Shown here piece by piece: positions 6,201 to 63,840 of a stretch of 64,000 nt of DNA. Source of the DNA: Eledone cirrhosa (taxonomy: Eukaryota); assembly GCA_964016885.1 (NCBI GenBank), contig OZ024743.1:361026001-361090000 (forward strand), written 5' to 3'. The position numbers and the translations under genes are program-made. The notes below the pieces were generated by a model, which was not told where the DNA came from, did no database searches, and worked only from the letters and a program-made list of their open reading frames with translations. Numbering within the stretch: the stretch's first letter is position 1; the number at the start of each line of letters is the position of its first letter.

Positions 6201-7225
6201 CTTTAGCCGATGCATAATAGAGATGATTTAAATCAGTAATGTTTAGTTTGTTTGTGATGATAATGTTTTTGATAATTATGTTAGTCTTGTGTATTATCTT
6301 TTGGTTCTGTTTGGAGTTGTGGATCTTAGAGAGGGTGTCTCGTTGCCCCATGTCAGATTCTTTCATTTTCATCCATTCAATCATAATTTCATCCTTCAAG
6401 TTGGCAAGTTCATTCTCATTCATTTCTTTATCATTTACGATCTCATTATTTTCATTTGGAGTTTCATCCTGAGCATGCACTCCCTCCACTTTTTCGATCC
6501 TTTCTTTAATTTGTTCTGTTGCCAGTGATTCCGCCCCAACCCTGGGATTCAAAGTGTTACAGTTTACCTAGTTTTCACTGACACATGTTTCATTTTCCCT
6601 TCGCTGACTTTGTGCTAATAGCTTGATCTGATCAATTTCTATATCAGTTAGTAACTTTTTTCTTACAATATTTCTTCGTATATTGGCTAGTTTGTGACTG
6701 TCAATATAGCCTCTGTTTTCGGGATGTTTCTTTTTCCAGTTGATACATGTCTGTTCTGTATTCGATGTATTTGATGGGTAGTACATGGCAGTGTAGAAAG
6801 CCTCAAGGACTTCTTTATTATCTTCCCTTGACCATTTTTCTCTCTTTTTCTTTGGATTTCTTGGTGGTGAGCATGGAGGGCCAACAGTAGGAGTATTCCG
6901 GTTATGGGAGGTCTCCAGCTCCGAAGTGATGGGAAGGTTTGAACCATTAGCTGATTTTCCGACCCCAGTCTGGTTCCTCTCTGAGGGACGCGGCCCTTTT
7001 TTACCCGGGTGACGGCCGATCCGGTATGAGATTTTATCATTAGACATTTACTTTATTTTGTCGCGTTTTATCCTTATCCGCCAAGGGGTAATCATTTCGT
7101 GTTACCACTTCTAGAACGAGTGTCAACCAAGATTAGAAGGGTCGTTCTCCCCTAGAGACACGGCTATTCCCCGCCGGCCGCCATCCCGGTATATCTTGGT
7201 CACAGGGTTTTCTTTTTGTTGTTTT
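3222..7225 (-). mobile_element. Full-length R4/Dong-clade non-LTR retrotransposon
   Basis: 5' UTR 7048-7225, single ORF 7047-3397, 3' UTR 3396-3252, (AAT)n tail 3251-3222. Confidence 0.95.
3397..7047 (-). pseudogene. RT-CCHC-RLE polyprotein of about 1216 codons with two in-frame stops
   Basis: ORFs 6568-7047, 5209-6552 and 3397-5163 share one frame and are separated only by TAG (6568-6570) and TAA (5209-5211). Motifs: KWSREDNKEVLEAFY, GIFQGDSLSP, FYMDD, CRVC..ETIDHIISMC, RHD, RPDII..LIDMSVP..KLSKY. Confidence 0.93.
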
Positions 7226-12169: not shown

Positions 12170-12735
12170 AACTGGCGGACTTATTGAATTTTGACCCATG
12201 GCCGATTACAAAACACAAAAGACGCAATATCAAACACCCCTGCCCACATTAAAAAGTTTCACTGAGAAATAAGAACATGAAATTATAGAAAAAAAAAGAT
12301 AGATAGAAAAAAAAAAAAATTAACATCAACGCTTCGACAAATTTCCTTACAGATACATCGCCATATATTTCTTAACACCTCACTATGTCTTTTCCTTTTT
12401 ATTCGCACATTTTACTATTTCTACTCTTTCTCATATATATTACTTCTTCACCGTCTCCTCGCAAACTCTCCTGCCTGATATGATCCCCATACAACTCAAT
12501 CTAACCATGGCCACGTAGCCGAAGTGATAATTAGATTCAGTTTTTCATCTGCGATCGAAAATGAATATTTGAAACGATACTCTGAGCGAAACTGGTGTGT
12601 GAAAACCTACCTCTATTTAGAACAAAATAGCAATTATTTTATATGAATTAATTCCTTTTTATTGTTTATTGTAGTTTTGCATGTATATTAAAACACTTTA
12701 TGTTCATCTCTAAATAGTTTTTGTTATTTTTCGTA
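12170..12735 (+). mobile_element. Probable decayed PLE 3' end with degenerate HHR
   Basis: HHR-like TTTTCAT-CTG_CGA...GAAAC-TG-GTG-TGTGAAAA at about 12541-12605. Pyrimidine-rich UTR upstream, ends in TA repeats. Confidence 0.4.
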
Positions 12736-12741
12736 TATATA

Positions 12742-13309
12742 TTCACTAGCTCTGACAGTTTGGCAGGTGAACAGTGAGCTGTACTGATGAAGGATGACAC
12801 CACGAACATTTAGTGTCTGCGGTTCTGTTCACATGCCAAAACAAGAGCAAGAATGAAGGGTTCATTCTACTGACATGGCTATAAAATTGAGGCTTGTTTG
12901 CATAATTGCAAACGAATCGAATGTTATTATTAATATTCGCAAATCTCAGATTCCATGGTTGAATACAATAAATGGAATCTGAGATTTGCGAATATTAATA
13001 ATAACATTCGATTTGAGAGCAATTATGCAAACAAGCCTCAATTTTATAACCATGTCAGTAGAATGAACCCTTCATTCTTGCTCTTGATTTGGCATGTGAA
13101 CAGAACTGCAGACACTAAATGTTCGGGGTATCACCCTTCATCAGTACAGCTGACAGTTCACCTGCCAAACTGTCAGAGCTAGTGAAAGTATATGCTATTT
13201 TCAAAAATACGCAGTGACTAATCGGCTTGATTTGCATATTAGAAGACTGGCCGATCAGTCAGATCTGCATATTACCAGATCCACTGATCAGCCAGATTTG
13301 CATATCAGC
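12742..13309. mobile_element. HHR repeat family B, fold-back copy (arms 12742-12956 and 12972-13186) plus extension
   Basis: About 215-bp inverted repeat with a 15-nt loop. HHR in each arm. 13187-13309 carries three repeats of about 33 bp containing AT(T/C)TGCAT. Homologous to 52043-52367. Confidence 0.85.
13104..13151 (-). ncRNA. Type I HHR of family B (inverted twin at 12777-12824, + strand)
   Basis: AGCUGUA-CUGAUGA-AGGG-UGAUA-CCCC-GAAC-AUUUAGU-GUC^UGCAGUU. In the + twin stem I is extended by GUGAACAG/CUGUUCAC and UUUGGCA/UGCCAAA. One core A is missing (GAAC). Confidence 0.7.
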
Positions 13310-13312
13310 TAT

Positions 13313-13730
13313 ATTATCGTTTTCGGTGCACCCGGCCGATTATCCCACTCGATATGCAAATTGGGCTACTCAGCCGTTAATATGCATAAGGTAAGTATAT
13401 ACGTTCAACAATCTGGCAGGAAGGTATACGTTGCTGACGATAGCTAATAAGCTTGAAACTAGTACAGCGTTCCTTTGTCAGTGTTAAACAAACGAGCAAC
13501 GATTGTTGCTGGACACTACGGCTTAATACGGGATGTTTGTTTACAAACACACCGAGCATTAAAATAAATGTTCAGTGAACCCATATGTACATATATATAT
13601 GTGTGTATGTATATATATACATACTACTGTACGTCTGTATACATATATGTATGTACGTTTACATACTTATATTTAAGTAACAGCCGTACTAAGAGTGGGA
13701 AATGAAATTTCGTTTCTTTTTTCCGTTTAT
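13313..13730 (+). mobile_element. HHR repeat family C, one monomer of about 420 nt
   Basis: Near-identical to units at 25451-26215 and 51091-52041, where the tandem period is 422 bp. Confidence 0.88.
13428..13470 (+). ncRNA. Minimal type I HHR of family C
   Basis: ACGUUG-CUGACGA-UAGCU-AAUA-AGCUU-GAAAC-UA-GUA^CAGCGU with palindromic stem III (ACUAGU). Other copies at 25721-25763 (-), 25961-26003 (+) and 51653-51695 (+). Confidence 0.85.
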
Positions 13731-14012: not shown

Positions 14013-14094
14013 TTGTGTGTGTGTGCCAATGATTATGTGCAGTTTCCGTTTTACAAAATGGGCTAATGCATTATTTTCCAAATGATATATCTCT

Positions 14095-14283
14095 ATAATT
14101 GTTTCTACTTTTGGCAAAAGGTTAGCAATTATACCAGTACATTACTGGTGCTCTATTTATCGACCCCATAAGGATGAAAGGCAAAGTTAACCTCGTTCAT
14201 TTGAACTCAGCACGTAAAGGGACGTAACTAAGCTGTAAAGTATGTCGTCTCATCCTCTACCGATACTGCAAACCACCGGCCTT
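14095..14283 (-). mobile_element. tRNA-derived SINE (octopus OK-SINE-like) with 13-bp TSD
   Basis: B box GAGTTCAAAT and core TTTCATCCTT..GGGGTCGATAAA. ATCTCTATAATTG is duplicated at 14089-14101 and 14284-14296. Confidence 0.85.
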
Positions 14284-14995
14284 ATCTCTATAATTGAAAG
14301 CACTTGTTTGAACCTTACTTATTCTAATCAAAATATTCTAACTCTTATGGTTACATTTACATATTTAAGTTAATCATAATAGCGTATCTTACTTACTTTT
14401 TCTACTCACTCTTTTTGTCAGTAATATCAGTCGTAAACAGCCCGCAAATAGACAGTCATATATGAACACAGACATACAATCTTGTATCTAAGTAAATAAA
14501 ATAAAAATACAATAACCAGAAAGTAGTATAATAGGCTGTAGTATGATAGGAAATTATGCCTGGTTTAACTTTGCTGTGATACGAAAATACAGTTAATGTA
14601 TTTTTTCTCAAATGCCATATTCGTCAACTACGACAAAAATATCTATGAGGACACATAACAACATATATACTTCCAAGGTTTCTATCCTACCAGACAACAG
14701 GCATTGGATGAATAACTTGACAATATATCCAGGTGTTATTATTCTCCCGCGTTTCAAATTCACTCTAACTCTGAAGAAATACGTTTAATTCGGTGCATAT
14801 ATGATCTTATGTATGCGTGTATAGGTAGTCATATATAAAAGCAGTACTACACACTTTTAGCTTCCTTTTGCACTGGACTTTCACTGAAGAAATACATTAA
14901 ATAAAAATCCAACAGTGTGAAATAATAGATTATATATATATACATTTTTAACAGTAGTAACATCTTGATATCCATTGTGAATCGACCCGTAATTA

Positions 14996-18251: not shown

Positions 18252-18445
18252 AGGGCGATAGATTGGCAGTATCGGTAGAGGGTCGGACGCCATGCTTTGA
18301 CGCATTGAGTTACGGCCCTTGCCATTCTGAGTTCAAATCCCGCCGAGGTTAACTTTGCCTTTCATCCTTACGGGGTCAATAAAATAAAGTACCAGTAATA
18401 TACTAGGTAATTTGTGGCCTTGTGCCAAAAGTAAAAACAATTATT
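18252..18445 (+). mobile_element. tRNA-derived SINE with TSD
   Basis: A box TGGCAGTATCGG, B box GAGTTCAAATCC. TTATTATTACAATACTACT flanks both sides. Confidence 0.9.
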
Positions 18446-18542
18446 ATTACAATACTACTACTACTATTATTATCATTATTATTATTCATTGAGTCTCAGT
18501 CATTGATGTTATTTAACTGGAAAGTAAAAACAATTATTATTT

Positions 18543-18737
18543 AGGGCGGTGGATTGGCAGTATCGGTAGAGGGTCGGACGCCATGCTTTCCAGCATAGTT
18601 AAGCCCCTTTACGATCTGAGTTCAAATCCCGCCGAGGTTGACTTTTCCTTTCATCCTTACGGGATCGATAAAATAAAGTACCAGTAATGCACTGGGTAAT
18701 TGCTGGCCTTGTGCCTAAAGTAGAAACAATTATTATT
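18543..18737 (+). mobile_element. tRNA-derived SINE (different variant from its neighbour)
   Basis: Near-identical to the copies at 40028-40213 and 49428-49620. Confidence 0.9.
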
Positions 18738-19552
18738 ACAATACTACTACTACTACTACTATTATTATCATTATTATTATTCATTGAGTCTCAGTCATTG
18801 ATGTTATTTAAGTGGAAAGTTTGTTCAAATGAACATCAAGCTGCTACCTGCAGCCTCAGATGTTTAGGATGTATCAGAGGGTTCTTACTGTTCCCAACCT
18901 TTTGAAGTGTTCTAAAAACGAGGTTGGACTAATCGTCTTTAACCATCAGATATGTACTTTTATATGTAGATTCGTGTATAAATGTTGCTGAAGTATTAGA
19001 CACCCGATTTGTTATTTAGGGTTGCTACAAGAAATAGGTCATTGTCGATGTTATCACATCGGTGTTCCAATTTGGTCAAGATGGTAAATTATGATGACCG
19101 GATACAGAATGTCTGTGTTGTTTTAGGCTATTAAATTTCAGAAGACAACAATGAATAGATAAATACGTATGTAAAAGAATAAATAAAAAAGAAAAGAACA
19201 GAATAAAGAAATAAATGTACAAATAAATGGATGAGTAAATACATAAATGAAAAGTCGAAGATATAAAGATAAAAATTAGATAGATAATACAATAAAAATA
19301 AATAAAAATAAAAATAAATGAATAGGAACTAAAATGGATGAACGAAAAGGTAGAGGAGTAAACAAATAAATAAAGACAACAAACAAAAAACAGAAATATG
19401 AAAAAAAAAAAAGCGAATGCCTAAACGGACCAGTTCAGATATCCTCGCGAATTAACATCATGTGTGTACAGTGAAGCATGTAATATGTGATAAAATATTT
19501 ATATGATGTTACACTGAATCTTTGTTCCCTAATTATATATATATATATATAT

Positions 19553-20445: not shown

Positions 20446-23345
<2,900 letters not shown>

Positions 23346-23420
23346 TATATATATATATATATATACATACATATATATATACATATATATATATACACAT
23401 ATATTTATGTGTGTGTGTGT

Positions 23421-23775
23421 GTACGTATGCGTACTTGCATTTATGTATCAGCTGTGCTAGGGCGGGAAATAAAATTTTAATTTTGTATTTAATATTCGGC
23501 ATGGTCAGCCATAACTCGCTTGGTATGCAAATAAAGCTACCCACCCGAGGTATACTTCAGAAAACACTATATATTTTCAACCGTTCAACATTCGCAGAAT
23601 GGCATGCAGCCTGATCAAGGGTAATGACCCAGAAACATGCTGATTGTTCCTCGATGCCAGTGTTGAACAAATGGATGACGATTGCTGATCGGTATGGCAC
23701 TGCTTTAATCGTTTGCTTACAAACGAATCGAATATTATTATTAATGTTCGATATAACCCATATGTATGTGTACAT
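23421..23775 (+). mobile_element. HHR repeat family D (divergent relative of B and C)
   Basis: Shares ATGCAAAT, CGTTCAACA / CAGTGTTGAACAAA and TTACAAAC with C, and CAAACGAATCGAAT.TTATTATTAAT with B. Broken HHR at 23607-23642 (CTGATCA..GAAACAT, cleavage triplet lost). A related fragment lies at 26260-26330. Confidence 0.7.
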
Positions 23776-23794
23776 ATGTGATATATATATATAA

Positions 23795-25405: not shown

Positions 25406-25450
<45 letters not shown>

Positions 25451-25455
<5 letters not shown>

Positions 25456-26215
25456 GGAAAATATGAAACGAAATTTCATTTCAAACTCTTAGTACGGCTG
25501 TTACTTAAATATAAGTATGTACACGTACACACATATATGTATACAGACGTACTGTAGTATGTATATGTATATAGATACATGCACACATATATATATATAT
25601 GTACGTATGGATTCATCGAACATTTATTATAATGCTCAGTGTGTTTGTAAACAAACATCCCGTATTAAGCCGTAGTGTCCAACAACCATCGTTGCTCGTT
25701 TGTTCAACACTGACAAAGGAACGCTGTACTAGTTTCAAGATTATTAGCTATCGTCAGCAACGTATACCTTCCTGCCAGATTGTTGAACGTATATACTTAC
25801 CTTATGCATATTAACGGCTGAGTAGCCCAATTTGCATATAGAGTGGGTTAATCAGCCGCGTGCACCGAAAACGATAAAAGGAAAAAATTAAAATTGGGCT
25901 ACTCAGCCGTTAATATGCATAAGGTAAGTATATACGTTCAACAATCTGGCAGGAAGGTATACGTTGCTGACGATAGCTAAAAAGCTTGAAATTAGTACAG
26001 CGTTCCTTTGTCAGTGTTGAACAAACGAGCAACGATGGTTGCTGGACACTACGGCTTAATACGGGATGTTTGTTTACAAACACACCGAGCATTATAATAA
26101 ATGTTCGGTGAATCCATACGTACATATATATATATATATGTGTGCATGTATATATATATATACATACTTAAGGTAGGTCTGTATACATATATGTATGTAA
26201 GTGTACATACTTATA
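25451..26215. mobile_element. Family C fold-back pair (minus monomer 25451-25877, plus partial 25891-26215)
   Basis: Inverted copies of the 13313-13730 unit, each with an HHR, flanked by (TA)n. Confidence 0.9.
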
Positions 26216-26354
26216 TATATATATATATATATATTTGTGTGTGCGTGTATATACAGTATATGTGTGTGGACCTATGCATACGTACATTATATATCAGGAG
26301 TACTAGGGCGAGAAATAAAATTCTAATTTTATATATATATATATATATATATAA

Positions 26355-27359: not shown

Positions 27360-30300
27360 TTAGGGAAGCAGAAGATTACTTATTGTGATCCAGTTCGTGG
27401 TTAAGAAAGCCAGTTTCATGGATGGTTTCAACGTACGGTTAGGCGTAACTCCACAAGTTTGTAAGAATTCCATTCAATCTTGGAGTATAAAGTATAAAAT
27501 GGAAAACACAGGTAAGCATTAAGAGAAGGATTTTATCCAGGTATTTACGTCCGTTTCATTGGTAAGTGCAACCTTATATTGCTATACTGCAAATAGCAGC
27601 CACTCAATGATAATTGTTGTTCACGTCCAAATTTTCAAAAGAGTGAGTAAGTTACTCTTGAAATAGTTCTTAATATATAGAGAAAAATTTTTTTTTAAAT
27701 TGTATTTACTGGTATAGAGAGAGAGGAAGGGGAAATAGAAGGTGAGGGGACAAACGGAAAAGTAGAGAGAGAGAGAGAGGAAGAGGGACAAGAGTTAAGA
27801 AGTAGAGTGACAAACTGAGATGGAGGGAGGCGTAGAGATGGAAGGACTTATTGATCAGTTTTGATATGTAGACTTCATGTCGTCGAATGTGGTGAGTTAA
27901 AGAGAATTAAATTGATCATAGTGGGAGGGATGGATAGAGAGAGAAAGAGATAACTATATATATATAAAATAAAGATAAAGATAATAATGACAAAAATAAA
28001 AGCAAAGAAGGGGGGAGAAAGAAGAAAAGAAAAGATAGCCAAAAAGGGTAGGAAAGGAAGGAAGAAAACGAAGAAATAGAAGAGGAATCAAGGAGAAGGG
28101 AGGGATATAGGTAGTGGTTTTTGTGGGTAATTAAAAGGGTCTAGATACAATAAGAGGGTACAAAGTCTGAGTATATGCAGTTTGTCAGTTGGTAGTAAGA
28201 GGTTAAGGGTTCGATTTGCACTTGTAGTGCGAACACTTTTCTTTGAGTCTATGGCTACAATAAATTGATCTTTCGATTTTATTGTTGAGTAACTTATTCT
28301 TCGAACTCAAATTGTGGAACAGCTCAAGGTCACATAATCGACAGCTTCTCATACCACTCCGATATGGGGGCGCGTTCGATAATTTTTCAACTTCAGTGTG
28401 TATTGATGGTTACTTTCCCTCAGTTGCCAGGTCTTGATTGCAGGGTAGTTACATAACGATGCTGGGAATGTTTCATTGCGTAACGGTGTGTATACCAACG
28501 GGCTTCAAATGTATTCCCAGTCGCTCCGATGTAATACCATTTCGGGAAAATTAGTAAACATATATTAGACACAGTGATAGCACAGATGAAGAATAAACTA
28601 GTGATTAAACTATGGGGTAACGCTACCGAAACAATTAAGTGGTTTAACTATATAGCTAACAAAAATTATTTAAATTTATACAATTTGACATTAACGACTA
28701 TTACTCCTCTATATCCACCAACACCTTGGATAAAGCCTTAGCATTCGCCAAAGCCAATTCTGACCTAACAGACGACGAGATAAAAATCATATTAGCTGCT
28801 AGGAAAACAATAATTAAATTTGAAAACGCCTATTGGGAACGTAAGGATAGATTATATAACTTTGACATCACGATGGGGGCTAACGACTCGGCTCAAGTCA
28901 CAGATTTAGTAGGTATTTACATAGCCAGTAGTTTACAGAGTGAGTTTAGCAACCTTCACGGTGGAATCTACAGAGACAACGCCCTTCTCCTAGTAAAGAA
29001 CCTAAATAACCAAGCATAGAAAGACTCCGTTAGAATATTAGAAAGACTCTCGGGAAACTAGGCCTTAGCATAACGTATGAGCGTAGCACTAAAGCAGTTA
29101 ACTTTTTAGACGCCACGCTTAACCTAAATACGGGACTTATAAGACCTTTTCAGAAGATTAATGAAAACTTAGCATACATCAACTGTAACTCAAACCACCC
29201 ACTATCCATAATTAAATCCATTCCACGCAGCATATCCCTTAGGATTTCCCGCCTTTCGTCTAACCGACAAATCTTCGAGGAACATGCAGAATACTACAAT
29301 ACCGCATTAGACAAGGCAGGACACTTAGATAGAGTAGGATATATATATTAAAGCCTCCGCAAAGCGCACACGAACACGCATAACACAAACTCCAGAAACA
29401 CACGCACACACACACTTACTCATAGAACTACAAAGTATACGGTAAATAGAAATACAACATCGAAATCAAACAAGTCACGCAATAGAAAATATATTTGGTA
29501 TAACCCCATATTTAACACCTCTATTAGTACTAACCTACCCTCTACCTTCTTTATAATAATAAATAAGCACTTTCCAGATTTACATAGATATAGCAAAATC
29601 CTTAACACTAAATCTATTAGACTATCTTACACCACGGCACCAAATATAGAGGCACACATTAAGATGCTTAACGATAAAAAGATACATAACAACACCAGAA
29701 CACAAATTTACAACAATAACAATACAATCACCATTGAACACAACAGAATATCTAATACACAACCACCCACTAATATGCAAACAAAACGTAACACACTTGT
29801 ACAGGCATCGCAGCCCACCAATAATGCCAAAGTTGCCCATGACAAGAATTGTAACTGCCACCAACCTGAAACCTGTCCATTACATAATGAATGTATGCAG
29901 TCTAACCTGGTTTACCAATCAACAGTGGAATCAGACAACTAGAAATGTTATGACATCGGAGCGACTGGGAATATATTTAAAGCCCGTTGGTATACACACC
30001 GTTACGCAATGAAACAGCATCGTTATGTAACTACCCTTGCAAACAATACCTGGCAACTGAGGGAAAGTAACCATCAATACACCCTGAATTGGAAAAAATT
30101 ATCGAACGCGCCCCCATATCGGAATGGTATGAGAAGCTGTCGATTATATGACCTTGAGCTGTTCCACATTTTGAGTTCGAAGAATAAGTTACACAACAAT
30201 AAAATCTAAAGATCAATTTATTGTAACCATAGACTCAAAGAAAGGCTTTCGCACTACAAGTGCAAATCGAACCCTTAACCTCTTACTACCAACTGACAAA

Positions 30301-30998
30301 CTGCATATACTTAGACTATATTCCCTCTTATTGTATCTAAACCCTTTCAATTACCCACAAAAACCAATACCTATATCCCTCCCTTCTCCTTCATTCCTCT
30401 TCTATTTCTTCGTTTTCTTCCTTCCTTCCCTCCCCTTTTTGGCTATCTTTTCTTTTCTTCTTTCTCCCCCCTTCTTTGCTTTTATTTTTGTCATTATTAT
30501 CTTTATCTTTATTTCATATATATATAGTTATCTCTTTATACCCCAATCTCTCTCTCTATCCATCCCTCCCACTATGATAAATTTAATTCTCTTTAACTCA
30601 CTACATTCGACGACATGAAGTCTACATATCAAAACTGATCAAAGAATCCTTCCACCTCTACGCCTCCCTCCATCTCAGTTTATCACACTACTTCCTAACT
30701 CTTCTCCCCCTTCCTCTCTCTCTATACTATTCCGTTTGTCTCCTCACCTTCTAATTCCTCTTCCCCTCTCTCTATACTAGTATATACTATCCCCCAAACA
30801 TCTTTTTCTCTATATATTAAGAACTATTTCAAGAGTAACTTACTCACTCTTTTGAAAATTTGGACGTGAACAACAATTATTATTGAGTGGCTGCTATTTG
30901 CAGTATAGCAATATAAGGTTGCATTTACCAATGAAACCGTCGTAAATACCTGGATAAAATCCTTCTCTTAATGCTTACCTGTGTTTTCTCTTTTATGC
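27360..30998 (+). mobile_element. Hydra-like PLE: truncated RT + GIY-YIG with an inverted 3' duplicate of about 1.2 kb at the 5' side
   Basis: Plus strand from 28544: GKISKHIL..QFDINDYY..FDITMGANDSAQVTDLVGIY..IYRD..NFLD..SNHP; linker CNCHQPETCPLHNEC..VY; IGATGNIFKARW..H; CRL..E. 27490-28543 is the reverse complement of 29942-30990. Confidence 0.9.
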
Positions 30999-31011
30999 TA
31001 TATATATATAT

Positions 31012-38845: not shown

Positions 38846-40027
38846 GAGGTTAAGATGTATGACAATTAGGATTTAGAATATATTTAAGCCTATTTTTGGA
38901 AAGGTTGTCACATATGTATATATAAATAGACGAGTAAATAATTGTATAACCATGGGATTGTTGGAGGTTTCCACTTGTCCATTAATAATTTAATCCTATC
39001 TGATAGCTTCTAATAAGTACCTGCATATCACACCATCATACACATATTGATAAATTTTGGATTCATTTTATACGCGTATATGGCAGACATTTTATTAAAA
39101 ATTTGACAAACAAATTTGCGGCATAAATGAAATAGTTTAGTACAATTTCAATTACGATGTTAAGTCTTGTGTAAAGACGTAAACACGATGTTCTAACTTT
39201 CAGTTTTAATCAGTAAATTGTTGTCATTTTGTAATTAATTAAATAAACGTTTTTATGCTATGATATGTATTCTTCATATATGGTGTATAATCATTTATAA
39301 TGTAAATTCTGTATAGAATACACACCAAGAAAAAACTACTAAAATATGCATTGTTGTGTTACACGAAAGCATTCATACTACCTCCCTCTGACAACCCTGA
39401 AGTGTAGTTTTTGACGGTGTTGGTATTTAGTTCATCTAACCTCTGGAAATATGACTCTTGAAAAACCCCTTACATTATATCTTGTTCACTCATCCTCATT
39501 GTGTCGATATCACTTCCAAAAACACTCAGGAAGAAACGATGCAGGCCGCAGAAACTTGTTTAGAATCAATGAAGTCAAAAGAAACTTAAAAATCCTACCA
39601 GGCGCGGATGTATTTTCGATAATAATACAATAAAGTAAAATTAAATTGCTCTATTTTCCCTAGAAAATACGATACTGAAAATTATTCCGGCCTACCATAC
39701 ATAGGCATACCTGGAAGACAAAAACAAAAAAACAAAAGACCGTTTGAACTCCGACGTACACGGTTTATCCCTCCCTGTTTTTTGTTTCATATAAACTTAC
39801 ATCAGAACTCACATACAATCAGCTGGAAGTAAAGAAAGGATTGCACTTTGTCCTGATTCTGAAAATATTGCACTTACATTTAACAACCCTTATATCATGA
39901 TTTACTACTCAATCCTGATTTCGTGAAGAACAACTTCCCAAAATATCGAAGGAAAAATGAACCCGTATACTTGGTAAATTCTTAACGCAACTAAAGAGAA
40001 GGTGTTTCAGTATTCAGGCATATAATA

Positions 40028-40213
40028 ATATAATTGTTTCTACTTTTGTCACAAGGCCAGTAATTCACCAGTGCATTACTGGTACTTTATTTTATCGACC
40101 CCGTAAGGATGAAAGGCAAAGTCAACCTCGGCGGGATTTGAACTCAGATCGTAAAGGGACGTAACTATGCTGGAAAGCATGGCGTCCGACCCTCTACCGA
40201 TACTGCCAATCCA
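40028..40213 (-). mobile_element. tRNA-derived SINE
   Basis: Reverse complement of the 18543-18737 type. Confidence 0.9.
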
Positions 40214-42140: not shown

Positions 42141-42190
42141 CATACATACATACATACATACATACATACATACATACATACATAATACAT

Positions 42191-45100
42191 CAGTCAACGC
42201 GATCAGTCGCATATTTTGGCGTGGGAGACTATTTATTAAATTTAAGATGAATACTATCTCCGACAGTAATGCCACAACTACAGCCAGGTTGAATAACTGG
42301 TTATTCTTCTAACTATCCCTTCTGAAGACACCTTTTATTCGAATTCGTAGAGATATCCGACTAAATACATAATTCATTTTACAAGGATTTGCTACAAACA
42401 GCATGGCTGAACACAACATCAACAAGAAAATTAAAGAAGTATCGAAGACAAAAAACAAAGAAGGTAATCAAACTTTATTCAGTTGTAGCTACAGAAGGAA
42501 CCGAAATTATAAATCGCATTTCTCTTGGAGTTGCGAACTTAATAATGATTTATTTAATTGTTATAAAATGGCAAAAAATAATCCCTCCATTGGCTATATA
42601 AATAGAATGAAGCTACACTGGGACGAAATGCACCCAGGGCTAAACTATTTCACAGCGAAACAATTACCGCAACAAGCGACGTTTGTTGAACGTAAAAATA
42701 AGATAATTATTATTAATTGTAAGTCCCCCACAACAAACATGTAATCAACAACACGTGCTACAGATCGCCATGCTACTAGAATTCCTAGCAGCCAGGTCGA
42801 ACACCGCCTTGAAACAACTATGCCTGTACCATCTAAGTCTACCTCGAATGCTGGAGAAAACACTATCGATAATAATAATAATCGAAGAAATAATAATAAT
42901 AATCGAATAAATGTGACAGCACGTATACCATCCGAGTCTACCGCGACTGTTGTGGAAAATACTATCGATAATGATAATCAAAAGTATAAACAATTGAAAA
43001 TATCCCTCAACGAAATCTTCCAGAGAGAAATTAACTCATGTATAAATATCTCTCTGGCTGAACGTGTTAAAATGACAATGGTGAATAAAAAACCAAATAA
43101 TGAAATACTACGTGTTATTGACGAAATTGGGGATGAATATTTACGACGGATAAAAACCCCAACCTTTTGGCAATCAACGCCTGTTTATATGCCTTAGCAA
43201 TGAAAGTGAAGCATTATCTTGGTTAGAGCAGAGATATTAACAAGAACAAAACACCACCAAAAATACCATCATATATAACTAAAATAGAAAAAAAGAGTGC
43301 TGACCTACGAAAAAACATAGGACATGTGATAATGCTCCTTACATGCAAACAAACACAAAAAAACCTCACTCCTCACCAACGAAGAGTCAAAAATAAAATA
43401 GAGACGATGTTTGGTAACAGTAGCACCAGAACTCTCCAATATAAGCTGATCACCCTCAAACAAGAATTGAGAGCTGTTAGCGAAAAACGCCAATACCTGA
43501 AGAAGGTAGATGAGAGAAAAGTGCTTAATAAAAGATTCAGACGAAACCAAACATCAGTCTAGAGAGATATGAAGGGCAAAATAATAAGTGTCACTGAGGC
43601 CCCATCCCAGAAAGACATAGATTCCTTTTGGAGAAAAATATGGGGTGAAAAGAAGAATTTCAACCAAGACGCCGTGTGGCTAAGAGAAATCCGAAAGAAC
43701 TATTGCTCCTACACTACAACAAAAACATACGAAATAAGTGAGGGTACCCTTGAGACTGTGATAGGAAAATTCCAAGATAAGAAAACACCAGGAAGGGACA
43801 TGATTGTCGGCTACTGGTACACAAAACTAATATTCTATCGGAGGTATCTAACTGACCTCTACCAACAAGTTCTTAAGGGAGATACACTTATAGCAGAATG
43901 GTTGACATTAGCACAAACGTTACTGGTCCCCAAGAACAAAGACATCCACTTGGCTAAAAACTACCGACCCATTGCATGCCAGAACCTGATGTATAAGATG
44001 TATACAGCCTGCCTCAACCTGTTCCTCCAAGATCACTGTGAAAATAATAACATCATCACAGATGAACAAGCAGCTGGAAAGAAAAGGGTTTGGGGATGTG
44101 CTGAACAACTCCTCATCAACAAAACTGCGATGTCGGAGGTGCGAAAACTTAGGAGGAATATGACTACAGTCTGGCTGGACTACAAGAAAGCTTTCGATTC
44201 TGTTCCCCACTCTTGGGTGATAGAGGCCCTCCAACTTGCTAAAGTCCCAGACATTATTGTCAGAGCCATAGAGAGGCTGTCTTCTTCTTGGGCTACTATC
44301 CTAAGGTTAAAGACAGAGAGGGAGGACTCTATTTTCACTAATAAAATAAAATATTGCAGGGGTATATTTCAGGGGGGACAGTCTCTCTGTGATATTGTTC
44401 ATCTTGTCATTAAACCCCTTGTCCTTTCTGCTCAAGAAATGTGAGGGATACATCATTGGCTCACAGGAGGACAGAAATACGAACCTAACCCATAACTTCT
44501 TTGTGGACGATCTGAAACTCTATGCCAAAACATGGATGAGATGAAGAAAAATCTTGACCTGGTTACAACGTTCTCAAAGGATATAGGAATGGAGTTTGGC
44601 CAAGATAAATGCTCATACATGACTGTAAAGCGGGGAAAAACAACAACCCAATCTAGCAACATTGTCATCAATGGTCTAACTGTTTCACCGATATCTGATG
44701 AGGACTGCCACAGATACCTGGGGATAGATGAGAAGATATCCTATAATGGTATCTGTAATAAAGAACGCGTAACCATGGAATACTATACTCGATTAAGAAA
44801 GATCTGGTCATCGGAACTCTCTGCGCAAAACAAAATAGTGGCTCACAGTGTGTTTGCTGTGCCTGTCCTAACACCAACGTTTGGAATACTCAATTGGACG
44901 ATAGACGAAATCCGAGCAGTTGATGTTGGAACTCGAAAAATACTGAACAACACCGGAAACTTCCACATCAACAGTGACATAGACCGCCTTTACTTGAAAC
45001 GTAAGCAGGGAGGCAGAGGCCTAACATCAGTCCAGACATTTGAATGTCGCATCATATCTCCCCGACAACATCTACGAACCTCGAAGCGTAGGAGCCCGCT

Positions 45101-46256
45101 TCTCGAGCAAGTCTATCTGCATGAAACAGATAAGATCATGAGGATTGGGAAGGAACTCCTTCAGAGATATTCCCTGTGTGACAATCAAAACCTCACACCC
45201 AGTGATGTCGCTCAGCAGTATCGCAGTGAATCCATGGATGAAAAACTGCATGCCTAACAGCAAACAATCATGCATGGATATGTTGCCAGGAAGCTCCAGA
45301 GTGAGAGTAATATAGATAAGGAAAATAGTCTATCTTGGACCAACAACCGCTATATTGGCTCCCACGTTGAAGGATACGCTTTTGCAATCCAAGAACAGGA
45401 GATTAGCACGAAATACCTGATTCACAAAAGAGATAGGGATGCAGGCAAAACACCTAGATGTGATAACAAGTGCAGACTCTGCAGAGCTAACATCGAGGAT
45501 ATCACCCATGTCATCAGCAGCTGGTCAAAGATGTCATCGCGGTACTATCTGCCTATGAGGCATGATGTAGTGGCCAAAACACTGTACAATGCAGTTCGTA
45601 AAAAAGATAGCCCCGATAATAAACACATTAAAAGCTACAACAATGTGGAATACATTCATGTACATAATATGAAAAAGTACTGGTGGAATGTTACAGTAAA
45701 AACCCCTATAAAATGCAGGCATAACAGACCAGATATTATGATATGGGACAGGGAGAAGAAAACATGCACAGTAGTGGAAATTAGCTGCCCAGCAGATGCC
45801 AATATAATATCATGGATTAGTGAAAAGGAGAATATTTATGCAGAACTGATGAGAAATCTGCAGATACTCCACCCTGATTACACCTTCAGATTTATGCCTG
45901 TGATTATTGGGGCACTGGGATATGTTAGTAACTGCCTCAATACAAATCTTGAGAAGCTAGGCTTCACAGGAACAGAAAGAACACAACTAGTTAGGAAATT
46001 ACAAGTACAATCCATTAATGGAACAGTAAAAATATGTAAAACATTCAAAAAGTTCTAATGACTCCATATACACATGTACAGAAAAAATAATATACACATG
46101 CACACATATAACTCAAATTATACACCTCCACACATACACTAACATCCATACTGCACACACATGCTTGCATATATATATACTTAGTTGATGTTATGTACAT
46201 TCCAATTAGAGAGACTTGTATCTATGTTTTAGGAATTATAAACCCTGAAAAACATA
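42191..46256 (+). mobile_element. Full-length degenerate R4/Dong-clade element in (TACA)n, copy 1
   Basis: ORF pieces 42403-46058 with NYRPIAC, WLDYKKAFDSVPHSW, GIFQG, FVDDLKL, CRLC..EDITHVIS, RHD, RPDIMIWD..VEISCP..K..Y, PVIIGALG. TACA repeats at both ends. Confidence 0.93.
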
Positions 46257-49337: not shown

Positions 49338-49427
49338 GAATACAAATAAAATATAGAGTTATTAACTAATATTGATATCCTGCAATAACAAGCTCAAGTC
49401 TAAATACTGAGCATTAAATAAAATATA

Positions 49428-49620
49428 AGGCGGTGGATTGGCAGTATCGGTGGAGGGTCGGACGCCATGCTTTCCAGCATAGTTACGTCCCTTTATGATC
49501 TGAGTTCAAATCCCGCCGAGGTTGACTTTGCCTTTCATCCTTACGGGGTCGATAAAATAAAGTACCAGTAATGCACTGGGTAATTGCTGGCCTTGTGCCT
49601 AAAGTAGAAACAATTATAAT
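49428..49620 (+). mobile_element. tRNA-derived SINE
   Basis: A and B boxes, core and tail as in the other copies. Confidence 0.9.
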
Positions 49621-49764
49621 ATTAATAAGTGTGGAAGTAAACACAGTAAATTCTGCGTATAAAATTACGAGGGTAGATTTCACCACAAATGTTATATATA
49701 TTTAAACTGAAGCATACAGTTTGGTACAAGGTTTCCTATACATACCGTATCAATAACGATTTCA

Positions 49765-50489: not shown

Positions 50490-50690
50490 GCCAACTTCAG
50501 ACCCCAGAGGTCTACAGAAAAGCCAGAGACATACGCTAGCAACTAACTATGTAAGGATTCACTACTATCAATAGACCCCAGTGATCTACAGAAATAGAGA
50601 CATCGGAGTACCCCACTACAGAACCAGTTATGTGAAAGATTCACCACTATCAACAGACCCCATGAGGTCTACAGATACACACACAGAGAT
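50490..50690 (+). repeat. Three diverged tandem repeats of 75-82 bp
   Basis: AGACCCCA(GA/GT/TGA)G(G/A)TCTACAGA at about 50500, 50573 and 50655. ATTCAC.ACTATCAA occurs twice. Confidence 0.75.
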
Positions 50691-51090
50691 TTGAGCCCTA
50701 CTGCTACAGGCCATGTACAGGCCACGGTGGTTCACAGTTACCATAACAGAGGTATACAAACCATATCTCTCTCCTTTACTCACTACGGTCTAAGAATTAC
50801 TACCACGGACTCCAACTTCCAACAACATTATCTGTTCGCTCGCTGTTTTCACATAAAAAACATTAAAATTAACAAAAAATTAACAACTCTTGGTAACTGT
50901 TTTTTTGTACATTTTAATTGATTCACGTGAAGTAAACCATGTATAAACCAAATCATTTATTCTTTATATTCTCTTTATTACACCTATTCTTATTATTCTT
51001 GTTATTATCATATCAACTAATAACCACATACAACCATTTTATATAAATTACTTATTTCATACTCTTCGTTAAATATATGTATATATATAT

Positions 51091-52041
51091 ATAAACGGAA
51101 AAAATGAAACGATATTTCATTTCCCACTCTTAGTACGGCTGTTACTTAAATATAAGTATGTACACGCACATACATATATGTATACCGACGTACAGTAGTA
51201 TGTATATATATATATATATACATATATGCACACATATATATATGCACGTATGGATTCACCGAATATTTATATATATGCACACATATATATATGCAACGGT
51301 GGTTGCTAGACACTACGGCTCAATACGGGATGTTTGTTTACAAACACACCGAGCATTATAATAAATATTCGGTGAATCCATACGTGCATATATATATATG
51401 TGTGCATGTATGTATATATATATATATATACATACTACTGTACGTCGGTATACATATATGTATGTACGTGTACATACTTATATTTAAGTAACAGCCGTAC
51501 TAAGAGTGGGAAATGAAATATCGTTTCATTTTTTCCGTCTATCGTTTTCGGTGCACCCGGCCGATTAACCCACTCGATATGCAAATTGGGCTACTCAGCC
51601 GTTAATATGCATAAGGTAAGTATATACGTTCAACAATGTGGCAGGAAGGTATACGTTGCTGACGATAGCTAACAAGCTTGAAACTAGTACAGCGTTCCTT
51701 TGTCAGTGTTGAACAAACGAGCAACGGTGGTTGCTAGACACTACGGCTTAATACGGGATGTTTGTTTACAAACACACCGAGCATTATAATAAATATTCGG
51801 TGAATCCATACGTGCATATATATATATGTGTGCATGTATGTATATATATATACATACTACTGTACGTCGGTATACATATATGTATGTACGTGTACATACT
51901 TATATTTAAGTAACAGCCGTACTAAGAGTGGGAAATGAAATATCGTTTCATTTTTTCCGTTTATCGTTTTCGGTGCACCCGGCCGATTAACCCACTCGAT
52001 ATGCAAATTGGGCTACTCAGCCGTTAATATGCATAAGGTAC
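51091..52041 (+). mobile_element. Family C: inverted fragment (51091-51270) plus about 1.8 head-to-tail units
   Basis: ATCGTTTTCGGTGCACCCGG at 51541 and 51963 (period 422). HHR at 51653-51695. Confidence 0.9.
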
Positions 52042-52042
52042 G

Positions 52043-52367
52043 TATATATGCTATTTTCAAAAGTACACAATGATTGATCGGCCTGATTTGCATATTAGCA
52101 GACTGACTGATCAGTCAGATCTGCATATTAGCAGATCCACTGATCAGCCAGATTTGTATATCAGCAGACTGGCGAGTCAGTTTCCTGTATACGAGCGGTA
52201 AATGGCCGGCGTTGCCAAATTCAAACAAAAAATAAAATGTTCGCTCTACATGGCTGAATACAATCAATTCAATCTGAGTTTTTCGAATATTAATAATAAC
52301 ATTCGATTTGGTTGCAATTATGCAAACAAGCCTCAATTTTATAGCCATGTCAGTAGAATGAACCCTT
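52043..52367 (-). mobile_element. Family B partial copy, circularly permuted relative to 12954-13309
   Basis: Block order is [13187-13309]-[83 new nt]-[12954-13072]. It stops before the HHR. Confidence 0.85.
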
Positions 52368-52374
52368 TATCGAA

Positions 52375-57138
<4,764 letters not shown>

Positions 57139-57224
57139 GAAGGGATATTTAATTTGTTGGAAAACCAACAAATATAAATGTTTATAACTGATTCAGAGTA
57201 CTCGACATATTTCTGGAATTTATA

Positions 57225-58135
<911 letters not shown>

Positions 58136-60060: not shown

Positions 60061-60167
60061 CCTAACGTAAACTTTAGCAGGAGTTCACAACAAGGGGATT
60101 ACCATATAATTAAAAGAATTTCACGTTTACATACATACACACATAAATACATACATACATACAATGA

Positions 60168-63100
60168 TAGTCAACGCGATCAGTCGCATATTTTGACGTG
60201 GGAGACTATTTATTAAATTTAAGATGAATACTATCTCCGACAGTAATGGCACAACTACATTCGGGTTGAATAACTGGTTATTCTTCTAACTATATCTTCT
60301 GAAGACACCTATTATTCGAATTCATAGAGATATCCGACTAAATACATAATTCATTTTACAAGGATTTGCTACAAACACCATGGCTGAACACAACATCAAC
60401 AACAACATTAAGGAAGTATCGACGACAAATAACAAGGAAGGTAATCAAACTTTATTCAGTTGTAGCTACAGTAGAAACCGAAATTATAAATCGCAATTCT
60501 CTTGGTGTTGCGAACGTAATAATGATTTATTTAATTATTATAAAATGGCAAAAAACAATTCCTCCATTGGCTATATGAATAGAATGAAGCTACACTGGGA
60601 CGAAATGCACCCAGGGCTAAATTATTTCACAGCGAAACAATTACGCCAACAAGCAACGTTTGTTGAACGTAAAAATAAGATAAATTTTATTAATTGTAAG
60701 TCCCCAACAACAAACATGTTATCAACAACACGTGCTACAGGTCGCCATGCTGCTAGACTTCCTAGCAGCCAGGTAGAACAGCGCCTTTGAAACAACTATG
60801 TCTGTAAGAAACTTGACACCACCTGTACCATCGAAGTCTACCTCGAATGCTGGTGAAAACACTATCGATAATAATAATAATCGAATAAATGTGACACCAC
60901 GTATACCATCCTAGTTTCGATACCTACTATCGAATAATACCTACTATCGATAATGGTAATCAAAAGTATAAACAATTGAAAATTTCCCTGACAGAAATCT
61001 TCCAGAGAGAAATTAACTCATATATAAATATCTCTCTTGCTGAACGTGTTAAAACGACAATGGTGAATGAAAAAAACAAATAATGAAATACTACGTGTTA
61101 TTGACGAAATAGGGGATAAAAACCCCAACATTTTTGCAAATCAACGCCTGTTTATATGCCCTAGCAACGACAGTGAAGCATTATCTTGGTGATAGCATAG
61201 ATATTAACAAGAACAAAACACCAGCAAAAATACCACCATATATAACTAAAATAGAAAAAAAGAGTGCTGACCTACGAAAAAACATAGAATATGTGACAAT
61301 GCTCCTTACAAACACAAAAAAACCTCACTCTTCACCAACAAAGAGTCGAAAATAAAATAGAGACGATATTTGGTAACAGTAGAACCAGAACTCTGCAATA
61401 TAATCTGATCACCCTCAAACAAGAATTGGGAGCTGCTAGCGAGAAACGCCGATGCCTGAAGAAGGTAGATGAGAGAAAAGTGCTTAATAAAAGATTCAGA
61501 CGAAACCAAATATCAGTCTATAGAGATATGAATTGCAAAATAATAAGTGTCACTGAGGCCCCATCCCAGAAAGACAGATTCCTTTTGGAGAAAAATATGG
61601 GGTGAAAAGAAGAATTTCAACCAAGATGCAGTGTGGCTAAGAGAAATCCGAAAGAACGATTGCACCTACATTACAACAAAAACATACGAAATAAGTGAGG
61701 GTACCCTTGAGACTGTGATAGGAAAACTCCAAGATAAGAAAACACCAGGAAGAGACATGATTGTCGGCTACTGGTACAAAAAACTAATATTCTATCGGAG
61801 GTATCTTACTGACATCTACCAACAAGTTCTTAAGGGAGATACACTTATACCAGAATCGTTGACATTAGCACACATGTACTGGTCCCCAAGAACAAAGACA
61901 CCCACTTGGCATAAAACTACTGACCCATTGCATGCCAGAACCTGATGTATAAGATGTATACAGCCTGCCTGAACCTATTCCTCCAAGATCACTGTGAAAA
62001 TAATAACATCATCACAGATGAACAAGCAGCTGGAAAGAAAGGGGTTTGGGGATGTGCTGAACAACTCCTAATCAACAAAACTGCGATGTCGGAGGTGCGA
62101 CAACTTCGGAGGAATATGGCTACAGTCTGGCTGGACTACAGGAAAGCTTTCGATTCTGTTCCCCACTCTTGGATGATAGAGGCCTTCCAACTTGCTAAAG
62201 TTCCAGACATTATTGTCAGAGCCATAGAGAGGCTGTCTTATTCGTGGGCTACTATCCTAAGGTAAAAGACAGTGAGGGAGGACTCTATTTTCACTGATAA
62301 AATAAAATATTGCAGGGGAATATTTCAGGGGGGAGTGTCTCTCTGTGATGTTATTCATATTGTCATTAAAACCCTTGTCCTTTCTGCTCAAGAAATGTGA
62401 GGGATACATCATTGGCTCACAGTAGGACAGAAATACGAACCTAACTCATAATTTCTTTGTGGACGATCTGAAACTCTATGCCAAAGACATGGATGGGATG
62501 AAGAAAAATCTTGACCTGGTTACAACGTTCTCAAAGGATATAGGAATGGAGTTTGGCCAAGATAAATGCTCATACATGACTGTAAAGCGGGGAAAAACAA
62601 CAACCCAATCTAGCAACATTGTCATCAATAGCCTAAGTGTTTCACCGATATCTGATGAGGACTGCTACAGATACCTGGGGATAGATGATAAAATATCCTA
62701 TAATGGTATCTGTAATAAAGAACGCGTAACCAGGGAATACTACACCCGATTAAGAAAGATCTGGTCATCGGAACTCTCTGCACAAAACAAAACAGTGGCT
62801 CACAATATCTTTGCTGTGCCTGTCCTAACGCCAACGTTTGGAATACTCAATTGGACGATAGACGAAATCCGAGCAGTTGATGTTGGAACTCGAAAAATAC
62901 TAAACAACGCAGGAAACTTCCACATTAACAGTGACAAGTCTATCTGCATGAAACAGATAAGATCATGAGAGTTGGGAAGGAACTCCTCGAAAGATATTCT
63001 CTGTATGATAATCAAAAACTCACACCCAGGGATGGCGCTCAGCACTATCGCAGTGAATCCATGAATGAAAAACTGCATGATTATCAGCAAAAAATGTTGC

Positions 63101-63840
63101 ATGGAGATGTTGCCAGGAAGCTCTAGAGTGAGAGTAATATAGATAAGGAAAGTAGTCTATTTTGGACCAACAACCGCTATATTGGCTCTCACTCTGAAGG
63201 ATACGCTTTTGCAATCCAGGAACAGGAGATTAGCACGAAATGCCTGATTCACAAAAAGATAGGGATGCAGGCAAAACACCTAGATGTGATAACAAGTGCA
63301 GACTCTGCAGAACTAACATCGAGGATATCACCCATGTCATCAGCAGCTGTCCAAAGATGTCATCGCGGTACTATCTACCTATGAGGCATGATGTAGTGGC
63401 CAAACCACTGTACAATGCAGTTCGTAAAAACGATAGCCCCGATAATAAACACATTAAAAGCTACAACAATGTGGAAGACATCCATGTACATAATATGAAA
63501 GAGCACTGGTGGAATGTTCCAGTAAAAATCCCAATAAAATGCAGGCATAACAGACCAGATATTATGATATGGGACAGGGAGAAGAAAGCATGCACAGTAG
63601 TGGAAATTAGCTGCAGATGCTAAGCATATACCCATGCACACACACAACTCAAAAGATACACATACACACATACAATAACATCCATATCTACACATGCATG
63701 CATGCATACATAATCTACCTTGTTGATGTTGTGTAAATTCCAATGAGAGAATCTATTGTGTCTATGTTAGAAACCGACTCACTCTCTATTGGGAACAAAT
63801 TTGTGAAATTATAAAACCAGATGAACATACATACATACAT
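60168..63840 (+). mobile_element. Degenerate R4/Dong-clade element in (TACA)n, copy 2
   Basis: Colinear with 42191-46256 and has the same 5' start. Deletion of about 130 bp at 62937 and loss of the RLE C-terminus at about 63620. TACA repeats at both ends. Confidence 0.93.

What the first reader, a model, noticed from the sequence alone, without database searches (positions are those of the whole stretch)
51091..52041. Family C: young 422-nt HHR monomer in head-to-tail array, present at three loci
Copies at 13313, 25451 and 51091 are nearly identical, lack a credible ORF, and occur as monomer, fold-back and 1.8-mer. A transcript across a full dimer would release a 422-nt RNA between GUA sites. 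This is the best candidate in the window for an active retrozyme.
Basis: partly seen in the sequence, partly recalled or inferred. Interest (0 to 1): 0.75.

Follow-up and report, generated by a model that had tools for sequence, protein, structure and literature searches.

The report
Hammerhead retrozyme with candidate Penelope driver
This is one young, two-armed copy of a very abundant protein-free jumping repeat that carries a predicted self-cutting RNA and is likely copied by the enzyme of a Penelope-type retrotransposon; the kind is already known, and this copy holds only one ribozyme, so it would not release the 422-base RNA on its own.

Summary
Real, and a new member of a known class (animal non-LTR retrozymes); the scan already found sister families elsewhere in this genome. 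The unit is 422 nt, non-coding, with one type I hammerhead motif. The genome holds 12,532 exact 32-nt ribozyme cores and true 422–424-nt multimers.

- The three window copies are about 95% identical, not near-identical.
- 51091–52048 is an inverted arm plus a 1.8-unit arm with only one hammerhead, so it cannot release a monomer. Only 9 of 46 sampled insertions carry two in one orientation.

Copies end at two fixed sites 53 nt apart beside (TA)n and have ragged 5' ends. Two-armed copies paired unlike fixed ends in 12 of 22 cases and like ends in none. This is a Penelope-like footprint.

A very young Neptune-type element (copies up to 99.96% identical, no hammerhead found) shows the same footprint. 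It shares a terminal motif with the older subfamily (13/14 nt) and is a candidate driver.

Expression, cleavage, circularity and polymorphism are untested. Variant patterns with a 2–3-unit period argue against a single monomer circle as the only template.

The parts
51073..51093 (.). (TA)n target tract at the left end of the insertion
   Evidence: sequence; the same context at most family ends
51091..51292 (-). Left, inverted arm: unit positions 246-422 plus a ~17-nt microsatellite-like filler at the arm junction. Its 3' end is the fixed site B (unit 422). No hammerhead.
   Evidence: (L001)
51293..52048 (+). Right arm, 1.8 units head to tail: unit 182-421, 1-422, 1-87. Ends at a minor TATATA site (unit 87).
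   Evidence: the same end site in L063
51540..51961 (+). One complete 422-nt unit, non-coding (38% GC measured on the L012 unit); 1 mismatch to a young multimer unit
51653..51695 (+). Type I hammerhead motif: 6-bp helix I, core CUGACGA (51659), helix II with a U.U at its base, GAAA, palindromic ACUAGU helix III, predicted cut after 51689. The only one in this insertion.
51628..51714 (+). Predicted extended helix I with internal loops flanking the ribozyme
   Evidence: -26.9 kcal/mol, z -2.2
51909..51961 (+). 53-nt 'tail' between the two fixed 3' end sites A (unit ~369) and B (unit 422)
   Evidence: loose ends with (TA)n at 51908 (run X6) and 51964 (run X1)
52045..52370 (-). Older neighbouring repeat (family D), likely a distant sister retrozyme, abutting the right arm tail to tail at TATATA
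   Evidence: more differences from the majority letters of run X1 than the family C unit
13313..13730 (+). Second window copy: single unit of an older subfamily, end B at (TA)n, one HHR (13434)
25450..26219 (.). Third window copy: two-armed, end B on the minus arm and end A on the plus arm, one HHR per arm (helix II damaged in the minus one)

Best explanation
This is a young, one-ribozyme insertion of a high-copy, non-coding 422-nt hammerhead repeat (an animal non-LTR retrozyme) that is likely copied into (TA)n tracts by the reverse transcriptase and GIY-YIG endonuclease of a Penelope-like element. Shown: unit length, tandem phase, ribozyme motif with covariation, copy number, two fixed 3' ends 53 nt apart, ragged 5' ends, tail-out two-armed insertions that pair end A with end B. 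Inferred: multimeric loci are transcribed; neighbouring hammerheads pair through the palindromic helix III and cut at GUA; the 422-nt monomer is partly circularised by a host ligase (about 60%, by analogy); the Penelope enzyme nicks both strands of a TA tract and starts cDNA at internal site B on one strand and site A on the other; the two 5'-truncated cDNAs are joined, giving the inverted arms. Templates longer than one unit are used at least sometimes. The likely driver (about 40%) is the young 4,734-bp Neptune-type family L091-L094. This locus is a dead-end product unless its RNA pairs in trans.
For: 12,532 exact HHR cores; 4,566 exact tandem junctions, 3,798 exact B ends and 1,517 exact A ends followed by (TA)n, all reversed controls 0. 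Helix I pair 3 reads U.G 29, A-U 11, G.U 7, C-G 2, U-A 1, U-U 2 among 52 distinct contexts; the core is intact in all 52 by selection, and helix III is CUAG in 49 of 52. In 40 position-ordered C1 stretches plus the window, 22 two-armed insertions were scored: 12 A+B, 10 with one arm ending elsewhere, 0 A+A or B+B. One-armed copies end at B 11, A 8, other 4. The Neptune-type element has RVT_1 and C-terminal GIY-YIG, copies on different contigs 99.4-99.96% identical, two ends ~45 nt apart at (TA)n, and A paired with B in 5 of 5 two-armed copies whose far end was readable near the anchor site. The old-subfamily terminal 14-mer matches best (13/14) at the Neptune end among ~9,500 positions, next best 11/14. 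Two RT start sites bounding a 'tail' and cleavage plus extension of both strands were shown for a lizard PLE in vitro (PMC11167929).
Against: No RNA data, so transcription, cleavage and circles are unshown. Rfam does not score the motif as a hammerhead. In Xenopus only 1 of 9 predicted retrozyme dimers cleaved in vitro (10.64898/2026.07.22.740005). Units within one insertion are not always clonal: period-2 patterns in L062 and L015, period-3 in L005, variant 12C in 6 of 7 plus-arm units and 0 of 2 minus-arm units of L043. For the driver: the young subfamily matches the Neptune end only 11/14, tied with an unrelated site; the motif sits at Neptune's upstream end but at family C's downstream end; the 14-mer length was chosen after seeing the match; no longer homology and no direct family C-Neptune hybrid was found; only three PLE families were examined.
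Confidence: 0.8

Rival explanations
1. Same family and same Penelope-type machinery, but the template is an uncut linear multimer transcribed from genomic arrays; the hammerhead and any circle are not needed for mobility.
For: Higher-order 2-3-unit variant patterns and variants shared by only some units of one insertion. Long genomic arrays exist, for example ~24 kb on C12. HHR mutants did not affect insertion by the lizard PLE in vitro (PMC11167929).
Against: Some private variants run through all or most units and both arms (403T in L015, 380A in L029, 88T in L066, 45T in L043). Helix I covariation across subfamilies implies selection on the ribozyme. Higher-order patterns can also come from duplication after insertion or from multimeric circles. 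C12-array variants were mostly absent from the dispersed young copies sampled.
Confidence: 0.35
2. The unit is simply the pseudo-LTR or 3' end of an autonomous Penelope-like element not yet found, and the copies are its 5'-truncated insertions.
For: Type I HHR, tail, (TA)n bias and tandem or inverted structure are all PLE pLTR features (Craig et al. 2021 passages). Xenopus retrozymes are related to pLTRs (10.64898/2026.07.22.740005).
Against: Units follow units with no ORF between (4,566 exact junctions; arrays of 7 or more). In 40 sampled stretches 5' ends ran into the previous unit, an inverted arm or unshared flank (45-nt flanks inspected, no ORF search of the flanks). No homology to the young Neptune unit. 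This may still describe the family's origin.
Confidence: 0.1
3. A DNA-level satellite or fold-back (MITE- or Helitron-like) repeat with an incidental hammerhead-like motif.
For: Fold-back structure and long local arrays; some C12 units have lost the HHR.
Against: Polarity (fixed 3' ends, ragged 5' ends), arms of variable length, A/B end pairing, helix I covariation. Local expansion probably explains only the long arrays.
Confidence: 0.04

Closest known systems
Animal non-LTR retrozymes (coral, mussel, axolotl; Cervera and de la Pena 2020, PMC7229834; seen: passages, Results parts 2-3 of 6, Discussion)
   Same: Tandem 150-450-nt non-coding units under 50% GC, one type I HHR per unit, thousands of copies, predicted highly paired monomer with the HHR left unblocked. 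Helix III of one pair plus a palindromic tetraloop as in HHR_Amex1; U.U at the base of helix II as in HHR_Amex2.
   Different: Sequence is lineage-specific. Expression and circles were shown there and not here. The two fixed ends, A/B pairing of inverted arms and a named driver are not in the parts of that paper that I read.
Vertebrate non-LTR retrozymes as non-autonomous PLE derivatives (Li, Clavereau and Pollet 2026, 10.64898/2026.07.22.740005; seen: parts 1-3 of 5, supplements not seen)
   Same: Co-occurs with PLEs; monomers, dimers and multimers; long arrays at few sites.
   Different: There the link is pLTR homology. Here the candidate driver shares only a ~14-nt end motif and no hammerhead was found in it. 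[quoted passage not shown]
EN+ Penelope-like elements, Neptune clade and PAc/Poseidon (Craig et al. 2021, 10.1101/2021.04.23.441226, passages; Frangieh et al. 2024, PMC11167929, parts 1-2 of 4)
   Same: 5' truncation, partial tandems, inverted copies, optional tail between two start sites, (TA)n or AT-rich targets.
   Different: Family C encodes no protein; its tail is 53 nt rather than 30-40; its end sites coincide with short TAT/TATAT stretches, whereas PAc starts at sites without homology to the target.

Membership tests
Animal non-LTR retrozyme | Short head-to-tail unit of a few hundred nt, low GC, no LTR-like coding body | tested here: met
   422 nt, 38% GC, longest stop-free frame 53 aa; multimers
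Animal non-LTR retrozyme | One type I hammerhead per unit | tested here: met
   descriptor scan and covariation; not detected by Rfam
Animal non-LTR retrozyme | [quoted passage not shown] | tested here: met
   9 of 46 sampled insertions; L005, L012, L043
'Active' retrozyme locus in the sense of Li et al. 2026 | Two consecutive complete HHRs at this locus (51091-52048) | tested here: not met
   single core at 51659, none on the minus strand
Animal non-LTR retrozyme | Dispersed at many loci as a mobile element | tested here: met
Animal non-LTR retrozyme | Stable, highly self-paired monomer | tested here: met
   circular MFE -136.6, 72% paired, z -8.1 against 60 shuffles; antisense z -4.5, so part of the signal comes from the microsatellite hairpin
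Animal non-LTR retrozyme | Self-cleavage, and accumulation as linear and circular monomer RNA | not testable with these tools
   no RNA holder listed; needs bench work
PLE-mobilised element | Fixed 3' ends with optional tail, 5' truncation, inverted arms, microsatellite target | tested here: met
Non-autonomous derivative of the L091 Neptune-type family | Sequence homology to its pLTR | tested here: not met
   no credible alignment at word size 7
Non-autonomous partner of the L091 Neptune-type family | Shared 3' terminal recognition sequence | tested here: inconclusive
   13/14 for the old subfamily, 11/14 (tied) for the young one; motif found at three families' ends
Autonomous PLE | RT plus GIY-YIG ORF | tested here: not met
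   no ORF in the unit

The most novel reading that the evidence does not exclude
One currently active Neptune-type element that has no hammerhead of its own drives several otherwise unrelated retrozyme families through a shared ~14-nt end signal (TTCTATWCCDTTYA next to the TA target), a SINE/LINE-like 3' code for Penelope parasites. It writes each two-armed insertion by starting one strand at site A and the other at site B of a circular or multimeric RNA.
Probability: 0.3. Interest if true: 0.65.

Novelty: new member of a known kind. Interest (0 to 1): 0.4.

Why it matters
That PLEs mobilise animal retrozymes is a published hypothesis supported by co-occurrence and pLTR homology; I found no direct test in the papers read. 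This family gives concrete handles: two mapped start sites, an A/B pairing rule, an intact and very young candidate enzyme, and thousands of insertions to read. The existing in vitro PLE assay could test the pairing directly. The class itself is known, and earlier notes of this scan describe the same footprint for several other families in this genome, so this locus adds modest new information.

Tried and rejected
1. RNA evidence: no RNA holder listed; not evidence either way.

2. Insertion polymorphism: contigs of runs X1, X4, X5, X6 laid on 50600-52500 gave no joint skipping the insertion, but the tool skips the (TA)n junction and no contig spans the locus; inconclusive. Low-depth holders X4 and X5 were not interpreted.

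3. Rfam: nothing at gathering score; at E<=10 only microsatellite-driven miRNA-like hits far below threshold, and no hammerhead family.

4. Family C as the pLTR of the young Neptune family: rejected, no homology. The other two PLE copies in the window (53430-57090, 27480-31010) show no terminal match (best 11/14, at internal sites).

5. Hammerhead in the Neptune unit: none with the strict scan; one implausible hit inside the coding region on the antisense strand with the relaxed scan.

6. Family C-Neptune hybrid: L100 looked like one but has another element and a TA run between; L010, L011 and L093 are separated by (TA)n.

7. Family D inserted into C and cut it at position 87: rejected as less likely, because no remainder of C lies beyond D and D differs more from its family majority than C does.

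8. Single monomer circle as sole template: not supported.

9. Rows dropped: one insertion of odd arm order in L059 was counted in the 46 but not typed. The 25k locus was scored 'other' because BLAST ran into a neighbouring relative; it is B+A, which would make 13 of 22. L001-L030 were score-selected and were left out of the end counts. Microsatellite and homopolymer columns were masked.

10. Literature: four searches. The search for octopus + penelope + hammerhead ribozyme listed only Craig et al. 2021. No paper on this family was listed; subscription journals are not covered.

Full report
OBSERVATION. The window holds three copies of one repeat: 13313-13730 (+), 25450-26219 (two arms) and 51091-52048. 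The period is 422 nt (51540 to 51962), or 428 across a longer internal microsatellite. Each complete unit has one motif ACGTTG-CTGACGA-helix II-GAAA-CTAG-TA^CAGCGT; in this locus the core is at 51659 and the predicted cut follows 51689. A real dimer has no stop-free frame above 53 aa. The copies are 94.7-95.9% identical, so 'nearly identical' overstates it: the 51k unit has 1 mismatch to a young multimer unit, the other two loci 16 and 21.

ANATOMY OF THIS LOCUS. From the left: a (TA)n tract; a minus-strand arm covering unit 246-422 with its 3' end facing the tract; a short microsatellite filler; then a plus-strand arm of unit 182-421, 1-422 and 1-87. Both 3' ends point outward. The plus arm stops 32 nt before the next ribozyme core, so the insertion has one hammerhead and cannot be cut on both sides of a unit. 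It abuts an older repeat (family D, 52045-52370) that aligns loosely with family C around the octamer, the ribozyme and downstream.

FAMILY IN THE GENOME. G000 (3.0 Gb; earlier notes of the scan call it an octopus, which I did not test) has 12,532 exact matches to the 32-nt core, control 0. The 40 best-scored full-length DNA matches of 776 candidates are 99-100% identical and lie on many contigs. Real multimers with 422-424 spacing occur (L005, L012, L015, L029, L043), and a ~24-kb array on C12 includes units that lack the ribozyme. In 40 stretches taken in positional order on C1, plus the window, 9 of 46 insertions with an intact core have two or more in one orientation. Copies range from 78 to 100% identity, with a young class (38 of 82 pieces at 95% or more) and older subfamilies.

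THE RIBOZYME. Rfam does not score it. Among 52 distinct contexts helix I pair 3 appears as U.G 29, A-U 11, G.U 7, C-G 2, U-A 1 and U-U 2; pairs 1 and 2 are invariant; helix II always starts with U.U; helix III is CUAG in 49 (contexts were selected for an intact core). A-CUAG-U is a palindrome with one pair plus a tetraloop, the form that cleaves poorly alone and well as a dimer in axolotl (PMC7229834, Results read). Unrelated hammerhead families in the same loci also have palindromic helix III. The cut-to-cut monomer of L012 folds as a circle at -136.6 kcal/mol (z -8.1, 60 shuffles; antisense z -4.5), with helix I formed. Activity is predicted, not shown; only 1 of 9 Xenopus dimers cleaved in vitro (10.64898/2026.07.22.740005).

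INSERTION FOOTPRINT. 3' ends fall at unit 422 (B; 3,798 exact ends followed by (TA)n) and about 369 (A; 1,517), with 4,566 exact read-through junctions, controls 0 (exact patterns, so lower bounds that are not comparable with each other). One-armed copies end at B 11, A 8, other 4 of 23, and their 5' starts scatter from 1 to 397. Of 22 two-armed insertions, 12 pair A with B, 10 have one arm ending elsewhere (including this locus, and the 25k locus, which by direct reading is B+A), and none pairs like with like. It fits PLE biology: truncation, partial tandems, inverted copies, tail and microsatellite bias (Craig et al. 2021, passages), and two RT start sites bounding the tail with both strands cut and extended (PMC11167929).

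CANDIDATE DRIVER. A decayed PLE ORF in the window (22849-23556) led to a family with 150 scored matches of 10,309 candidates, many in 784-aa open frames. The unit is 4,734 bp with a 455-aa ORF1 and a 784-aa RT plus C-terminal GIY-YIG ORF. The CX3CXXC linker before the nuclease suggests Neptune (motif; no tree was built). Copies on four contigs are 99.4-99.96% identical over the ORF. It ends at two sites ~45 nt apart beside (TA)n and pairs them across arms in 5 of 5 cases where the far end was readable near the anchor site. A degenerate end motif followed by (TA)n has 11,865 overlapping matches against 4 in the control; the first 30 rows were 16 Neptune ends, 12 rows (7 sites) of another hammerhead repeat with a ~615-nt period, and 2 old family C ends. 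The old family C terminal 14-mer has its best match (13/14) at the Neptune end, next best 11/14; the 615-nt family also peaks there (11/14); the young family C end only ties at 11/14. Against: the motif was defined after the fact, lies at Neptune's upstream end but family C's downstream end, no longer homology or hybrid exists, and only three PLE families were compared. No hammerhead was found in the Neptune unit, although Craig et al. describe them as typical of canonical PLEs.

CIRCLE OR LINE. If one monomer circle were copied round and round, all units of an insertion should share the same private variants. Some do (L015 403T, L029 380A, L066 88T). But L062 and L015 alternate with period 2, L005 with period 3, and L043 has 12C in 6 of 7 plus-arm units and 0 of 2 minus-arm units. 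Within-arm distances were 0-7.6% and the between-insertion median 4.9%, so separation is weak for young copies. Multimeric circles, linear multimers or later duplication all fit. The circle remains an analogy to coral, mussel and axolotl.

WHAT COULD NOT BE TESTED. Expression, cleavage, circularity and insertion polymorphism remain open. Supplements of the 2026 preprint and of PMC7229834 were not seen and may list cephalopod families.

VERDICT. This locus is a product rather than a source. Interest 0.4; the testable extra is the candidate hammerhead-less Neptune driver with a shared end motif (probability 0.3, interest 0.65 if true).

Noticed in passing
window 12735-13309, 52045-52370; L031:250-800: Family D: a repeat with several octamer-like ATTTGCAT copies and its own type I hammerhead (intact in L031). 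It aligns loosely with family C; both keep ATGCAAAT about 75-90 nt upstream of the core, a possible promoter or structural element. At 52045 it ends at the site that appears homologous to family C position 87.
   Followed up: partly
window 23400-23790 and 26250-26340: Decayed distant relative of family C (72-75% in patches) with a family D-like ribozyme, next to a truncated Neptune-type ORF.
   Followed up: partly
window 20904 (+), 49847 (-), 57472 (+, inside fold-back 57085-57687), 11117 (-): Further hammerhead motifs of unrelated families; 20904 resembles the ~615-nt family that shares the end motif.
   Followed up: partly
L091 (G000:C5:17086500-17096400), L092-L094: Very young Neptune-type PLE, 4,734 bp, tandem copies 99.7% identical, a separate 455-aa ORF1 with no Pfam match overlapping the RT-EN frame, and no detectable hammerhead.
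   Followed up: partly
G000:C12:20398212-20422085 (L019-L026): About 24-kb satellite-like array of family C with a recurring unit that lacks positions 39-231, including the ribozyme.
   Followed up: partly
L067:171-1326: 310-nt tandem hammerhead repeat, two-armed, also with U.U at the base of helix II and a palindromic helix III.
   Followed up: no
window 53430-57090 and 27486-31004: Two other decayed PLE copies (RT plus GIY-YIG; the second is an inverted pair) with ends unlike family C.
   Followed up: partly
window 3397-7047, 42147-46228, 60128-63768: Decayed non-LTR retrotransposons with an RT and a C-terminal nuclease-like region (named from recalled motifs, not searched); 42k and 60k are 92% identical.
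   Followed up: no
window 14094-14285, 18252-18820, 40023-40213, 49423-49624: A ~190-bp SINE-like repeat in five or more copies, 80-96% identical.
   Followed up: no
L066 (G000:C1:19619300-19627300): Three adjacent two-armed family C insertions with nearly the same breakpoints; one arm carries the variant block of a neighbouring copy, suggesting local duplication plus gene conversion or an assembly chimera.
   Followed up: no
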